The translations under genes and the position numbers were made by a program. Below the pieces are notes generated by a model. That model searched no databases. It was not told the DNA's origin and saw nothing but the letters and a program-made list of their open reading frames with translations. Below are positions 5,133 through 44,166 of a stretch of DNA of 64,000 bases, piece after piece; within the stretch, counting starts at the first letter, position 1, and the number at the start of each line of letters is the position of its first letter. Where the stretch lies: assembly GCF_054482525.1 (NCBI RefSeq), contig NZ_CM137006.1. One strand, 5' to 3'.

Positions 5133-5864
5133 TTAAATGCCGAGTGGGAAAATATCATGGCCTTGTTCCTGCCAACTGGTAAGTTGCTGCTGTTGGGCAG
5201 AGGTTCGATTTTCACCGCACCACACCAGCAATGTACGGCCTTCGAACAGTTCAGGGCGTAGTTGATTGAGCGAGTGGGCGAGGACATCAATGCGCCATCC
5301 TTGTTGACTGGCAATCCAGCCCTCCAGCCACAGACGGGTGGTATCGTGAATATTCCAGCCAACCACCAGCGCATCTTTACCCTGTTTTTTACGTGCCGAA
5401 GCCAGACAAATGGCGATGTAGTTGATCAGTACGCCGTCGAGGATCGCCAGCAGCGCCTGGAGAGTCGGTTGTTGGCACTGAAGTCGTCGGCGCAGAGGAA
5501 TAAACAGATGCGTGGTGAGTGTCTGGGCGGGGTAATCCTGACCGCGCTCTTTGATCCACGTTCGCAGGCTATGCAGATTGCCGCTTTGCAGGTAAGTCAG
5601 TAATGTTTCTTGCTGATCGCGCCAGCCGTTCTGCACATCAACATTTTCATTACTGAGCAGCATTTTAACTTTGCTGACCTGCACGCCGTTGTCGATCCAG
5701 CGTTTGATCTCGCGGATCCGGTCAATATCGGCATCGTTGAACAGCCGATGGCCGCCGTCTGTTCGTTGCGGTTTCAGCAATCCGTAACGCCTCTGCCACG
5801 CGCGTAACGTGACAGGGTTAATATCACAAAGCAACGCCACTTCACCAATTGTGTAAAGCGCCAT
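5133..5864 (-). CDS. mlrA: MerR-family transcriptional regulator (activator of csgD)
   Basis: 243 aa with an N-terminal MerR HTH (YTIGEVALLCDINPVTLRAWQRRYGLL). Sequence and position match K-12 MlrA/YehV. Confidence 0.93.
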   Translation of the reverse strand: MALYTIGEVALLCDINPVTLRAWQRRYGLLKPQRTDGGHRLFNDADIDRIREIKRWIDNGVQVSKVKMLLSNENVDVQNGWRDQQETLLTYLQSGNLHSLRTWIKERGQDYPAQTLTTHLFIPLRRRLQCQQPTLQALLAILDGVLINYIAICLASARKKQGKDALVVGWNIHDTTRLWLEGWIASQQGWRIDVLAHSLNQLRPELFEGRTLLVWCGENRTSAQQQQLTSWQEQGHDIFPLGI

Positions 5865-16244: not shown

Positions 16245-16329
16245 ATAAAAAAACCTGCTGGTGAGGCAGGTTCTTTGATTTACTACTTTCAGGCCTAACA
16301 CCACGGCCTGTGCAACATCGTGTTCCAAC
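16245..16329 (-). ncRNA. orzO: Orz-type antitoxin sRNA (predicted), copy 1
   Basis: Minus-strand promoter TTGCAA-17-TATAAT (-10 at 16336-16341). Minus-strand intrinsic terminator: stem 16252-16258/16266-16272 followed by a U-run. The 5' 20 nt (16310-16329) are complementary to the zor 5' UTR (16476-16495) with 1 mismatch. Ends are predicted, and the O/P naming is arbitrary. Confidence 0.65.
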
Positions 16330-16335
16330 GAACGA

Positions 16336-16386
16336 ATTATAACCATCGGTGGACCCCGTTGCAATTAAGATAATGAGATTTATAAT
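16336..16386. promoter_or_regulatory. divergent back-to-back sigma70 promoters for orz (minus) and zor (plus) sharing one palindromic -35 hexamer
   Basis: TTGCAA at 16359-16364 is its own reverse complement. TATAAT sits 16 bp downstream on the plus strand (16381-16386) and 17 bp downstream on the minus strand (16336-16341). The same layout occurs in copy 2 (16945-16995). Confidence 0.6.
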
Positions 16387-16566
16387 CCTGACTGTTGGGA
16401 CGTTGCGCCGGATCGAACCCATTTCAAGTCCTGGCTACCGGACGGGTGGTGCCGCAGGTAGTGCCCTGATCCGGAGTGCAACATCGTGGTCCAACATACG
16501 TAAACCAGTATCGACAGGCAGTGTAAGGGTAAGGTGCTGGTGTTGCGCTCCTTAATAAGGAGAGCG

Positions 16567-16656
16567 AATGGACACGCTGACACAAAAGTTAACCGTGCTC
16601 ATTGCTGTACTGGAGCTATTAGTGGCTCTGTTACGGTTGATTGATTTGTTGAAGTA
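16567..16656 (+). CDS. zorO: 29-aa hydrophobic type I toxin peptide (Zor family), copy 1
   Basis: Hand translation gives MDTLTQKLTVLIAVLELLVALLRLIDLLK*, which I recognise as the ZorO toxin described in E. coli O157:H7. Shine-Dalgarno AAGGAG lies upstream, and a long structured 5' UTR is predicted from about 16393. Confidence 0.8.
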
Positions 16657-16680
16657 ATGGGCAAATTGAAACGCAACTAA

Positions 16681-16703
16681 GGGGGAAAACCGCTTCCCCC
16701 TTT
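16681..16703 (+). terminator. intrinsic terminator of zor copy 1
   Basis: GGGGGAA-aaccgc-TTCCCCC stem-loop followed by TTT. Confidence 0.7.
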
Positions 16704-16852
16704 AATAAAATGATTACATCTTCCATTAATTCACCCGATAACTTTTTTCATATTTATAAATTCATCGATTTTATAATCAACGTACTATTTGGCCGGGATG
16801 TGAATAATCATGGTGGGCTATTGGCGAAAAATATCTGGAAAGTAGATCGTAG

Positions 16853-16938
16853 AAAATAAAAGAACCTGCTGGTGAGGCAGGTTCTTTTATTTACTACTTT
16901 GATGTTAAGTTACTGATAGTGCAACATGGCATCTCAAC
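16853..16938 (-). ncRNA. orzP: Orz-type antitoxin sRNA (predicted), copy 2
   Basis: Same architecture as copy 1: minus-strand -10 at 16945-16950 and terminator stem 16861-16869/16877-16885. The 5' 20 nt (16919-16938) match the cognate UTR at 17085-17104 with 2 mismatches. Confidence 0.6.
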
Positions 16939-17176
16939 GAACGAATTATAACCACCGCTGGACCGTGTTGCAATTAAGATAATGAGATTTATAATCCTGA
17001 CTGTTGGGAAGTTGCGCCGGATCGAACCCATTTCAAGTCCTGGCTACCGGACGGGTGGTGCCGCAGGTAGTGCTCTGATCCGGAGTGCAACATGGCGACT
17101 CAACATACGTAAACCAGTATCGACAGGCAGTGTAAGGGTAAGGTGCTGGTGTTGCGCTCCTTAATAAGGAGAGCGG

Positions 17177-17266
17177 ATGGACACGCTGACACAAAAGTTA
17201 ACCGTGCTCATTGCCGTACTGGAGCTATTAGTGGCTCTGTTACGGTTGATTGATTTGTTGAAGTAA
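17177..17266 (+). CDS. zorP: 29-aa type I toxin peptide (Zor family), copy 2; peptide identical to copy 1 (one synonymous change)
   Basis: Hand translation is identical to copy 1 (GCT to GCC, both Ala). Assigning O or P to a given copy is arbitrary. Confidence 0.78.
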   Translation: MDTLTQKLTVLIAVLELLVALLRLIDLLK

Positions 17267-17289
17267 TGGGCAAATTGAAACGCAACTAA

Positions 17290-17312
17290 GGGGGAAAACC
17301 GCTTCCCCCTTT
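17290..17312 (+). terminator. intrinsic terminator of zor copy 2
   Basis: Same GGGGGAA-aaccgc-TTCCCCC-TTT hairpin as copy 1. Confidence 0.7.
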
Positions 17313-17387
17313 AATAAAGTAATATTCTATTAGTTGGTTGAATATATTCTGTAGTTTACGATTAAAAATTGCTATTACAGTTTCAGG

Positions 17388-17639
17388 TTATTCACCTCGT
17401 AATTTCCGCTCATCAATACACTCATCTCTTATATAAATCAACGCATCATTTATTAGCGGGTCAACATCCTCTCGATCACGTTGATGAAATGTTGGACGTA
17501 GCCGGAACCGTTCCAGTCGGTAAACGGAACCTGTAAATAATTCAGAGCATTTATGGATCTCAAGTCTGAAGGAAAACGGATCTTCAGGTACAGGGACCTC
17601 ATAATTGTAAATAGCGACCAGCTCTTTTTGCACGCTCAT
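17388..17639 (-). CDS. yehK: small uncharacterised protein between yehI and the zor/orz module
   Basis: 83-aa ORF co-oriented with yehI, at the position of yehK in K-12. K-12 YehK is longer as I recall, so the symbol rests on position only. Confidence 0.5.
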   Translation of the reverse strand: MSVQKELVAIYNYEVPVPEDPFSFRLEIHKCSELFTGSVYRLERFRLRPTFHQRDREDVDPLINDALIYIRDECIDERKLRGE

Positions 17640-36142: not shown

Positions 36143-36224
36143 CAACCAAACGACTCGGGGTGCCCTTCTGCGTGAAGGCTGAGAAATACCCGTATCACCT
36201 GATCTGGATAATGCCAGCGTAGGG
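36143..36224 (+). repeat. attL: 82-bp direct repeat, a 5' portion of the TPP (thi-box) aptamer that lacks the 3' strand of the closing helix and the expression platform
   Basis: Identical base for base to 44033-44114. It contains CTGAGA and the other thi-box core sequences. It diverges from the thiM leader after ..GCGTAGGG. Confidence 0.9.
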
Positions 36225-36307
36225 GGCCAAAATAGTCTTGAAAATTATGTGGTTGTATCTCTTTTTGACCATAAATCATGCTGTTAAGGTACAAAAAGGG
36301 GTCGTTT

Positions 36308-44032: not shown

Positions 44033-44166
44033 CAACCAAACGACTCGGGGTGCCCTTCTGCGTGAAGGCTGAGAAATACCCGTATCACCTGATCTGGATA
44101 ATGCCAGCGTAGGGAAGTCACGGACCACCAGGTCATTGCTTCTTCACGTTATGGCAGGAGCAAACT
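44033..44166 (+). promoter_or_regulatory. complete TPP (thi-box) riboswitch of thiM; its first 82 nt form the attR repeat
   Basis: CGACTCGGGGTGCCCTTCTGCGTGAAGGCTGAGAAATACCCGTATCACCTGATCTGGATAATGCCAGCGTAGGGAAGTC matches the well-studied E. coli thiM aptamer. It is followed by the native expression platform and a GGAG Shine-Dalgarno. Confidence 0.92.

What the first reader, a model, noticed from the sequence alone, without database searches (positions are those of the whole stretch)
16310..17104. Co-varying sRNA/target recognition sequences distinguish the two zor/orz copies
In copy 1, the 5' 20 nt of the predicted antitoxin locus (GTGCAACATCGTGTTCCAAC, 16310-16329) reappear in the toxin leader as GTGCAACATCGTGGTCCAAC (16476-16495). 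In copy 2, the equivalent pair is GTGCAACATGGCATCTCAAC (16919-16938) and GTGCAACATGGCGACTCAAC (17085-17104). The central bases differ between copies (TCGTGNTC versus TGGCNNCT) but change together within a copy. Each sRNA should therefore discriminate its own toxin mRNA, which would insulate two otherwise identical toxins from each other. In both copies the pairing block abuts the predicted sRNA 5' end.
Basis: seen in the sequence. Interest (0 to 1): 0.5.

Follow-up and report, generated by a model that had tools for sequence, protein, structure and literature searches.

The report
Known zor/orz antitoxin recognition blocks

Summary
All four 20-mers sit at the stated coordinates. Cognate pairs differ at 1-2 positions, cross pairs at 5-6, and no shuffle of the window reproduces such repeats.

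The window is E. coli PCN033, in the yehL-yehK/yehI intergenic region. It holds two tandem zor/orz type I toxin-antitoxin units. Both Orz sRNAs are on the minus strand (Rfam RF02083). Their +1..+20 is the reverse complement of +83..+102 of the divergent zor 5' UTR.

Wen, Won and Fozo (2013) showed in EDL933 that the OrzO 5' end is the pairing domain. A variable triplet (V1, +9..+11) stops OrzP from repressing zorO, and they confirmed this with compensatory mutants. Shore et al. (2024) reported that this region varies across 2,439 loci and may prevent crosstalk.

- **Allele types:** copy 1 is the OrzP/zorP recognition type. Copy 2 is a third type, probably their orzQ/zorQ.
- **Covariation:** five pairs covary across natural alleles.
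- **Predicted binding:** -16 to -24 kcal/mol for cognate pairs against -6 to -9 for cross pairs.
- **Divergence:** differences between the copies concentrate in the blocks (10/40 against 8/308).
- **Still untested:** P/Q cross-repression has not been assayed.

The parts
16247..16329 (-). orz copy 1 sRNA gene (OrzP recognition type), about 83 nt, +1 at 16329
   Evidence: Rfam RF02083 OrzO-P scores 91.9 bits (gathering 60) at 16247-16322 on the minus strand. A terminator lies at 16248-16276 on the minus strand. The +1 is inferred from the -10 box position and from the published V1 numbering.
16310..16329 (-). Orz copy 1 recognition block, sRNA +1..+20 (5'-GUUGGAACACGAUGUUGCAC)
   Evidence: It forms 19 Watson-Crick pairs and 1 mismatch with zor1 +83..+102. 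It is identical to the P type of the O157-like strain 132.
16336..16364 (-). orz copy 1 promoter (-35 TTGCAA 16364-16359, 17-nt spacer, -10 TATAAT 16341-16336)
   Evidence: The same -35 and -10 hexamers are reported as more than 99% conserved (PMC11264685).
16359..16386 (+). zor copy 1 promoter (-35 TTGCAA 16359-16364, shared palindromic hexamer; -10 TATAAT 16381-16386)
16394..16567 (+). zor copy 1 5' UTR (174 nt), +1 at 16394
   Evidence: Inferred from the published 174-nt UTR and the RBS at +164..+169 (PMC5397157). That places AAGGAG at 16557-16562 and the ATG at 16568.
16476..16495 (+). [quoted passage not shown]
   Evidence: The predicted opening energy falls from 10.5 to 5.2 kcal/mol in the delta-28 processed form.
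16568..16657 (+). zor copy 1 ORF, 29 aa MDTLTQKLTVLIAVLELLVALLRLIDLLK (ZorO protein sequence)
   Evidence: This was the commonest protein among the 91 units sampled.
16679..16702 (+). GC-rich hairpin after zor copy 1, probable terminator
   Evidence: (inverted repeat I4).
16858..16938 (-). orz copy 2 sRNA gene (third, Q-like recognition type), about 81 nt, +1 at 16938
   Evidence: Rfam RF02083 scores 90.2 bits at 16858-16931 on the minus strand. The fold has z = -4.6.
16919..16938 (-). Orz copy 2 recognition block, sRNA +1..+20 (5'-GUUGAGAUGCCAUGUUGCAC)
   Evidence: It forms 18 Watson-Crick pairs, 1 G.U and 1 mismatch with zor2 +83..+102.
16945..16973 (-). orz copy 2 promoter
16968..16995 (+). 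zor copy 2 promoter (shares the -35 hexamer 16968-16973)
17003..17176 (+). zor copy 2 5' UTR
   Evidence: Placed by the 609-nt register with copy 1.
17085..17104 (+). zor copy 2 target block, mRNA +83..+102
17177..17266 (+). zor copy 2 ORF, with a 29-aa product identical to copy 1
   Evidence: It has 1 synonymous difference in 90 nt.
17288..17311 (+). GC-rich hairpin after zor copy 2

Best explanation
These are the two tandem zor/orz type I toxin-antitoxin units of E. coli, here in strain PCN033, between yehL and yehK/yehI.

Each unit has a 29-aa membrane toxin gene (zor) with a 174-nt 5' UTR. It also has a divergently transcribed sRNA (Orz) of about 80 nt on the minus strand. The first 20 nt of each Orz pair with +83..+102 of its own zor leader. 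That is the 3' end of the region exposed after 5' processing. In the characterised EDL933 system, this pairing blocks translation and triggers RNase III-dependent decay.

The central nucleotides of the duplex (sRNA +5, +6, +8 to +11) differ between the copies and are matched within each copy. Each sRNA should therefore bind only its own toxin mRNA.

Copy 1 is the published OrzP/zorP recognition type. Copy 2 is a third natural type, probably the orzQ/zorQ of Shore et al. 2024.

- **Shown here:** the sequences, strand and family membership; covariation across natural alleles; predicted energy discrimination.
- **Shown in the literature for the O/P alleles only:** 5'-end pairing, target specificity through V1, and the mode of repression.
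- **Inferred:** that the P and Q alleles of this strain are orthogonal in vivo.
For: - **Identity of the locus.** The window is 100% identical to PCN033, in the yehL-yehI interval. Rfam OrzO-P hits on the minus strand score 91.9 and 90.2 bits against a gathering score of 60.
- **Transcription signals.** Divergent sigma-70 promoters and a minus-strand terminator are placed to give sRNA +1 at 16329 and 16938. This agrees with the published V1 numbering.
- **Toxins.** The two ORFs encode identical 29-aa peptides.
- **Pairing in register.** Cognate duplexes are 6(1)13. Cross duplexes have 3-4 mismatches and a longest run of 9.
- **Energies.**
  - Block duplex: -30.8 and -30.0 kcal/mol cognate, -18.1 and -18.2 cross.
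  - Ensemble dimer binding: -16.2 to -24.0 kcal/mol cognate, -5.9 to -9.3 cross.
- **Natural alleles.** 91 units from 85 loci fall into three matched types: P 51, O 20, Q-like 13. All 19 two-copy loci are heterotypic, 11 P+Q and 8 P+O.
- **Covariation.** 94% of cells are paired, against 27-41% when the partner is slid. Five pairs change on both sides. No shuffle out of 500 reaches the observed covariation score.
- **Literature.** PMC3919570, PMC5397157, PMC2887945 and PMC11264685.
Against: - No experiment exists for the P/Q allele pair of this strain. Discrimination rests on thermodynamic prediction and on thresholds measured for OrzO/zorO.
- Both cognate duplexes carry an internal mismatch at sRNA +7, and copy 2 also has a G.U. 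They are less perfect than the 18-bp O-type duplex.
- Cross pairs keep 9 contiguous bp plus 4 terminal bp, so weak crosstalk at high sRNA levels cannot be excluded.
- E. coli SL112 keeps an orzQ-type sRNA next to a zor with a P-type target. Strict one-to-one insulation is therefore dispensable.
- The sRNA 5' ends were mapped in EDL933 (primer extension), not in PCN033.
Confidence: 0.9

Rival explanations
1. The covariation reflects only the need to keep each toxin repressed, through compensatory evolution. Concerted evolution (gene conversion) homogenises the rest of the repeat. Insulation between the copies is a by-product and is not selected.
For: - Outside the blocks and the orz internal stem-loop, the two copies are nearly identical (8/308). 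The stem-loop is very different (14/20).
- Copy 2 is a mosaic. Its stem-loop is O-like (5/18 differences) and its promoter and leader are P-like (4/64 and 2/82). That pattern is expected from gene conversion with breakpoints near the blocks.
- SL112 has both toxins under a P-type target and an orphan OrzQ, so loss of insulation is viable.
Against: - All 19 two-copy loci sampled are heterotypic.
- Only 3 of 5,426 complete genomes match the orzQ + P-target chimera at 99% or more, and no full-length orzP + Q-target chimera was found.
- Three or more discrete specificity types persist in the species. That is more than drift with compensation would easily give in a 20-bp duplex.
- This rival concerns why the pattern exists, not how it works. 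It is compatible with the mechanism in the best explanation.
Confidence: 0.35
2. The two sRNAs substantially cross-repress both toxins, because the conserved flanks of the duplex (4 bp plus 9 bp) are enough in vivo. The central differences would then be functionally silent.
For: Cross duplexes still have -18 kcal/mol in the block and -6 to -9 kcal/mol ensemble binding. Orz sRNAs are abundant in exponential phase (PMC2887945).
Against: - In the published system, 12 continuous bp did not repress. A 3-nt V1 mismatch (8(3)7, 15 bp in total) abolished repression, and OrzP did not rescue zorO despite equal expression.
- The cross pairs here are worse than those, with a longest run of 9 and 3-4 mismatches.
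- Covariation at five pairs would not be maintained if the centre were silent.
Confidence: 0.08
3. The 20-nt direct repeats within each copy are inert remnants of an old internal duplication and have no RNA-RNA pairing role.
For: They are direct repeats on one DNA strand, which is what a duplication would leave.
Against: - The sRNA is transcribed from the opposite strand, so the repeat yields complementarity.
- Lead probing shows OrzO protecting this site, and the first 18 nt alone confer repression when grafted on OhsC or IstR.
- There are compensatory changes across three allele types.
Confidence: 0.01

Closest known systems
zorO-orzO / zorP-orzP of E. coli O157:H7 EDL933 (Fozo et al. 2010; Wen, Won, Fozo 2013; Wen, Harp, Fozo 2017)
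   Same: - The same locus (yehL-yehI interval), the same tandem two-unit architecture and the same divergent promoters.
- The same 29-aa toxin and the same sRNA family (RF02083).
- The same pairing site: sRNA +1..+18/20 with the UTR about 73-92 nt upstream of the ATG.
- Copy 1 here has the same 20-nt sRNA block and target block as the P-type unit of the O157-like strain 132.
- Copy-specific recognition through central nucleotides is the published 'V1' concept.
   Different: - Copy 2 here is not the O type. Its sRNA block (GUUGAGAUGCCAUGUUGCAC) differs from OrzO (GUUGGUACGAAAUGUUGCAC) at 5 positions, and its target differs at 7.
- The difference between the two copies here spans +5, +6 and +8 to +11, not only +6 and +9..+11.
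- Both toxins here have the ZorO protein sequence. In the O157-like strain 132 (L001), whose recognition blocks match the published O and P types, the P-unit toxin carries T3S, the substitution Shore et al. report for EDL933 ZorP.
zorQ/orzQ, the third locus type named by Shore et al. 2024 (mSystems, PMC11264685)
   Same: It is a third recognition type that sits in the second position of two-copy loci. In my sample, 5 of 12 units with this block encode the A20S protein, which that paper calls ZorQ.
   Different: The window's copy 2 encodes A20, the ZorO sequence. I could not read the paper's orzQ query sequence because its supplementary tables S9-S11 are truncated in the held copy. The identification is therefore probable, not verified.
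[quoted passage not shown] 46 in Wen 2013)
   Same: These are multiple paralogous toxin/sRNA pairs in one genome, each sRNA discriminating its own toxin mRNA through a few variable nucleotides in the recognition domains.
   Different: Sib RNAs are true cis-antisense RNAs, fully complementary to ibs, with two recognition domains. Orz is encoded divergently, shares only about 20 nt with its target, and has one recognition domain.
tisB-istR-1 and shoB-ohsC
   Same: The sRNA is encoded divergently, its 5' end pairs far upstream of the RBS in a long processed 5' UTR, and the logic resembles a ribosome standby site. Orz copy 2 gives a sub-threshold Rfam match to ohsC_RNA (35.4 bits against 50).
   Different: These are single-copy loci, so paralogue discrimination does not arise. 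The toxins are unrelated.

Membership tests
OrzO-P antitoxin sRNA family (Rfam RF02083) | The covariance model scores above the curated gathering threshold | tested here: met
   Scores are 91.9 and 90.2 bits against a gathering score of 60, both full-length model matches on the minus strand. The model starts at sRNA +8, so it omits the first 7 nt of the recognition block.
zor/orz type I toxin-antitoxin locus | A divergently encoded 29-aa hydrophobic Zor ORF with a long 5' UTR, located between yehL and yehI | tested here: met
   The ORFs at 16568-16657 and 17177-17266 both give MDTLTQKLTVLIAVLELLVALLRLIDLLK. The flanking annotation is yehL and yehK(pseudo)/yehI in PCN033. The promoters are placed as published.
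zor/orz type I toxin-antitoxin locus | [quoted passage not shown] | tested here: met
   The blocks end 73 nt and start 92 nt upstream of the ATG. Copy 1 pairs as 6(1)13 with 19 Watson-Crick bp. Copy 2 pairs as 6(1)13 with 18 Watson-Crick bp and 1 G.U.
zor/orz type I toxin-antitoxin locus | Zor overproduction is toxic, and cognate Orz represses it in an RNase III-dependent and translational manner | not testable with these tools
   Known only from experiments on the EDL933 zorO/orzO pair (PMC3919570, PMC5397157).
V1-type paralogue discrimination (Wen et al. 2013) | The two sRNAs of one locus differ at +9..+11, and each target carries the matching change | tested here: met
   +9..+11 is ACG in copy 1 and GCC in copy 2, with complementary changes in the targets at +10 and +11. 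At +9 the target stays C and copy 2 pairs G-C. The matched changes extend to +5 and +6.
V1-type paralogue discrimination (Wen et al. 2013) | The non-cognate sRNA fails to repress | not testable with these tools
   Prediction only. Cross pairs fall below the published pairing thresholds. Ensemble binding is 10-18 kcal/mol weaker than for cognate pairs.
zorQ/orzQ locus type (Shore et al. 2024) | Highest BLASTn score to the zorQ/orzQ reference, with ZorQ = A20S as the common protein variant | tested here: inconclusive
The window's copy 2 has A20, not S20. Its recognition block is the one found with A20S in 5 of 12 sampled units.

The most novel reading that the evidence does not exclude
The most novel reading not excluded is that the Orz/zor recognition duplex is under diversifying selection. 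It would behave as a small natural 'address code' with at least three orthogonal types (P, O, Q) in E. coli. Short gene-conversion tracts would occasionally re-address a toxin from one sRNA to another, as in strain SL112, where the second toxin carries the P address next to an orphan OrzQ. The P/Q pair of this window would then be an untested orthogonal pair. The locus would be a tractable natural model for how sRNA-target specificity evolves after duplication.
Probability: 0.3. Interest if true: 0.35.

Novelty: already known. Interest (0 to 1): 0.13.

Why it matters
The finding matters little as a discovery. The mechanism, the role of the sRNA 5' end, the specificity-determining nucleotides and the 'prevents crosstalk' idea are all in print (2010, 2013, 2017, 2024).

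The residual value is modest.
- This strain carries the P type plus a third recognition type, and their mutual orthogonality has not been assayed.
- The comparative data here support real constraint on keeping every toxin matched to an sRNA. These are five compensatory pairs, exclusively heterotypic two-copy loci, divergence concentrated in the blocks, and a rare natural re-addressed toxin.

One practical point for anyone who tests this. E. coli K-12 hosts carry an expressed orphan OrzP identical to EDL933 OrzP (PMC11264685). It would be expected to repress the copy 1 toxin of this window.

Tried and rejected
1. Unconstrained RNAduplex on the full-length sRNA and mRNA gave implausible 60-80-nt duplexes that unfold the terminator. 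I replaced it with block-restricted duplexes plus opening energies and with ensemble dimer energies.
2. My first ORF coordinates were off by one and were corrected.
3. I tried to read the orzQ reference and the per-locus pairing table of Shore et al. from the supplement. The held file is truncated before Tables S9-S11.
4. Two metagenome contigs look like mismatched pairs: L029 (orzQ + P target) and L034 (orzP + Q target). I considered them as natural chimeras. I treat them as possible assembly artefacts, because the copies share about 146 nt of near-identical sequence between the blocks. L029 is a 1.4-kb contig, and L034 is a co-assembly contig that ends inside the second repeat.
5. I searched complete genomes for chimeras. 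No full-length orzP + Q-target chimera exists; the best full-length hits are ordinary P units at 97.8%. The orzQ + P-target chimera does exist, in SL112.
6. The GTDB species scan gave only three loci: Shigella flexneri, Escherichia sp. and E. whittamii. Cross-species depth is therefore small.

Full report
**1. What is in the sequence**

- Copy 1: 16310-16329 GTGCAACATCGTGTTCCAAC and 16476-16495 GTGCAACATCGTGGTCCAAC, 1 difference.
- Copy 2: 16919-16938 GTGCAACATGGCATCTCAAC and 17085-17104 GTGCAACATGGCGACTCAAC, 2 differences.
- Cross-copy comparisons differ at 5 and 6 positions.

Each 20-mer, searched with up to 3 mismatches, finds only itself and its cognate partner in the 64-kb window. None of 100 shuffles gives two matches.

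The copies are a 609-nt tandem repeat. Differences between them are concentrated in three places:

| Region | Differences between copies |
|---|---|
| Two recognition blocks | 10/40 |
| Internal stem-loop of the sRNA | 14/20 |
| Rest of the unit, orz +1 to the zor stop | 8/308 |

The contrast between the blocks and the rest gives Fisher p = 3e-6.

**2. What it is**

The window is 100% identical to the E. coli PCN033 chromosome, in the interval between yehL and a yehK pseudogene/yehI.

*The sRNAs.* Rfam's OrzO-P antitoxin model (RF02083) matches twice on the minus strand, at 16247-16322 (91.9 bits) and 16858-16931 (90.2 bits), against a gathering score of 60. The consensus scan finds, per copy, a minus-strand promoter (TTGCAA, 17-nt spacer, TATAAT). 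Its -10 box ends 7 nt before 16329 or 16938. It also finds a minus-strand intrinsic terminator at 16248-16276.

*The toxin genes.* A plus-strand promoter uses the same palindromic TTGCAA hexamer as its -35. The plus-strand ORFs at 16568-16657 and 17177-17266 encode the identical 29-aa peptide MDTLTQKLTVLIAVLELLVALLRLIDLLK.

*Why direct repeats can pair.* The sRNA is on the minus strand, so the direct repeats on the plus strand are complementary at the RNA level. sRNA +1..+20 pairs with zor mRNA +83..+102.

**3. Agreement with the literature**

- Fozo et al. 2010 (PMC2887945) discovered the tandem z3289/z3290 loci between yehI and yehL. [quoted passage not shown]
- Wen, Won and Fozo 2013 (PMC3919570):
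  - The first 18 nt of OrzO suffice for repression, even when grafted on OhsC or IstR.
  - OrzP does not repress zorO.
  - The variable triplet V1 at +9..+11 (GAA in OrzO, ACG in OrzP) sets specificity. V1 swaps and compensatory zorO mutations reverse it.
  - Repression needs 15 continuous bp, or 17 bp with one internal mismatch.
[quoted passage not shown] OrzO also inhibits translation as well as triggering RNase III decay.
- Shore et al. 2024 (PMC11264685) surveyed 2,439 loci.
  - They found the pairing region 'quite variable' and proposed that the variation 'may prevent crosstalk'.
  - They found 99.8% of Orz able to pair with their cognate zor.

The published numbering fits this window exactly.
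- V1 at +9..+11 requires +1 to be the G of GUUGG, which is 16329 and 16938.
- A 174-nt UTR with the RBS at +164..+169 puts zor +1 at 16394 and 17003.
- The target block then lies at +83..+102.

**4. Which alleles are here**

I compared the window with an O157-like strain (strain 132, L001). Its two sRNAs carry exactly the published V1 triplets.

| Unit | sRNA +1..+20 | Comparison |
|---|---|---|
| Window copy 1 | GUUGGAACACGAUGUUGCAC | Same sRNA block and target block as the P-type unit |
| EDL933-type OrzO | GUUGGUACGAAAUGUUGCAC | Reference O type |
| Window copy 2 | GUUGAGAUGCCAUGUUGCAC | 5/20 differences from OrzO; target 7/20 from zorO |

I then sampled 91 units from 85 loci (80 metagenome contigs, 3 GTDB genomes, strain 132 and the window).
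- Three matched types dominate: P 51, O 20, and the copy 2 type 13.
- All 19 two-copy loci are heterotypic, 11 P+Q-like and 8 P+O. The P unit is always next to yehL.
- Five of 12 units of the third type encode the A20S protein that Shore et al. call ZorQ. Copy 2 is therefore probably their Q type, although the window's protein has A20. I could not verify this against their reference.
- A 221-nt query spanning the copy 2 blocks finds about 860 of 5,426 complete E. coli genomes at 95% identity or more. The allele is common.

**5. Covariation and predicted discrimination**

I aligned five distinct natural sRNA/target pairs as a 20-bp helix.
- 94% of cells are standard pairs, against 27-41% when the partner is slid by 1-3 columns.
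- Five pairs (sRNA +5, +6, +9, +10, +11) change on both sides.
- No shuffle out of 500 reaches the observed covariation score.
- sRNA +7 (A) is mismatched in both the P and Q types.

Predicted pairing and energies for the window's four sRNA/leader combinations:

| Measure | Cognate pairs | Cross pairs |
|---|---|---|
| Pairing in register | 6(1)13 | 3-4 mismatches, longest run 9 bp |
| Block duplex energy (kcal/mol) | -30.8 / -30.0 | -18.1 / -18.2 |
| Net after opening both partners, delta-28 mRNA | -19.0 / -16.3 | -4.8 / -6.0 |
| Ensemble heterodimer binding | -16.2 to -24.0 | -5.9 to -9.3 |

The cross pairs fall below the published functional thresholds. The predicted opening cost of the target roughly halves in the delta-28 form, from 10.5 to 5.2 and from 11.1 to 6.8 kcal/mol. 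This matches the published 'exposed after processing' behaviour.

They support orthogonality, but they are predictions.

**6. How it most likely works**

*Shown in the literature for the O type, inferred for this strain.*
- The zor mRNA is made with a structured 174-nt leader that hides the RBS.
- Removal of the first 28 nt exposes +73..+102, which promotes translation, probably as a ribosome standby site.
- The Orz 5' end pairs with +83..+102, blocks that function, and creates an RNase III substrate.

*Shown here by sequence and comparison.* The centre of that duplex is a copy-specific address.

*Inferred.* In PCN033 the P-type sRNA controls only the copy 1 toxin and the Q-like sRNA controls only the copy 2 toxin, although the toxins are identical.

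**7. Why the pattern exists: rivals**

Divergence is concentrated in the blocks, and all sampled two-copy loci are heterotypic. Both points are compatible with selection for insulation.

They are also compatible with gene conversion homogenising everything except the two blocks. The blocks must stay matched to avoid an unrepressed toxin.
- Copy 2 is visibly mosaic. Its sRNA stem-loop is O-like and its promoter and leader are P-like.
- A complete genome, E. coli SL112, has an orzQ-type sRNA next to a zor whose target block alone is P type. There both toxins would be covered by OrzP, and OrzQ is an orphan.
- Only 3 of 5,426 genomes match that chimera at 99% or more. No full-length orzP + Q-target chimera was found.

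The firm constraint appears to be that every toxin keeps a matching sRNA somewhere in the cell. Whether insulation is selected for its own sake remains open.

**8. Verdict**

It is a rediscovery of a published and experimentally tested mechanism in a well-studied E. coli locus. The only unpublished element I can identify is that orthogonality of the P and Q-like addresses in this particular strain has not been assayed. That is an incremental question, so interest is low.

Noticed in passing
window 16359-16364 and 16968-16973: A single palindromic TTGCAA hexamer serves as the -35 element of both divergent promoters, orz on the minus strand and zor on the plus strand. RNA polymerase binding to one promoter may therefore exclude the other.
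   Followed up: partly
L086 (E. coli SL112, NZ_CP043486.1) 1440-1900: The second unit of this complete genome has an orzQ-type sRNA block (GTGCAACATGGCATCTCAAC) but a P-type target block (GTGCAACATCGTGGTCCAAC) inside an otherwise Q-like leader. It looks like a very short conversion tract. It re-addresses the second toxin to OrzP and leaves OrzQ without a local target. Three of 5,426 genomes match this chimera at 99% or more.
   Followed up: partly
window 16858-17176 compared with L001: Copy 2 is a mosaic. Its sRNA internal stem-loop resembles the O type (5/18 differences, against 14/20 to P). Its promoter region and leader resemble the P type (4/64 and 2/82, against 18/64 and 9/82 to O). This suggests recombination or gene conversion between units, with breakpoints next to the recognition block.
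   Followed up: partly
window 16323 and 16932 (sRNA +7) opposite 16489 and 17098: sRNA position +7 is A in the three main types (P, O, Q; G in one minor O-like variant, L075/L081). It faces G in the P target and A in the Q target, and pairs only in the O type. A conserved internal mismatch therefore sits in the middle of the variable segment in two of the three types.
   Followed up: partly
window 16247-16322 and 16858-16931: The Rfam RF02083 model begins at sRNA +8. It omits the first 7 nt of the experimentally defined pairing domain, including variable positions +5 and +6. Annotation taken from Rfam alone would truncate the recognition block.
   Followed up: yes
L003 (Shigella flexneri SFBU0723, CP182557.1) around 5300-5600: This unit has indels in both blocks: an 18-nt sRNA block GTGCAACATGGTACCAAC against a 19-nt target GAGCAACATGGCGACCAAC. 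That leaves only about 5 + 9 bp around an asymmetric internal loop, yet the 29-aa ORF is intact. It may be a decaying or differently regulated unit.
   Followed up: no
L075 and L081 (metagenome contigs): This is an O-like variant sRNA block (ATGCAATATTTCGCACCAAC) paired with a standard O target. It gives one mismatch and two G.U pairs within the 18-nt O-type duplex. The toxin carries A20V.
   Followed up: no
L034 and L029 (metagenome contigs): These are apparent non-cognate units: orzP + Q target followed by an orzQ unit in L034, and orzQ + P target in L029. They may be real conversions like SL112, or mis-resolved repeat bubbles in short-read assemblies.
   Followed up: partly
window 16854-16938, minus strand: Orz copy 2 gives a sub-threshold Rfam match to ohsC_RNA (RF02495, 35.4 bits against a gathering score of 50, E = 0.008). 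This hints at common ancestry, or at least a shared terminator architecture, among divergently encoded type I antitoxins.
   Followed up: no
window about 17286-17639, minus strand: yehK is annotated as a pseudogene with an internal stop in PCN033. Its 3' end abuts or overlaps the hairpin after zor copy 2.
   Followed up: no
window 36146-36241 and 44036-44132, plus strand: There are two TPP riboswitches (RF00059, 61.3 and 71.2 bits). They are ordinary thiamine-operon leaders.
   Followed up: no
window 16438-16459 (zor +45..+66) against the orz terminator 16250-16272: Unconstrained duplex prediction pairs the Orz terminator arm with zor leader +45..+66 (GGGUGGUGCCGCAGG resembles the terminator arm CUGGUGAGGCAGG). 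It is probably irrelevant, because the terminator hairpin is stable. It could be a trace of common origin of the orz gene and the zor leader.
   Followed up: no
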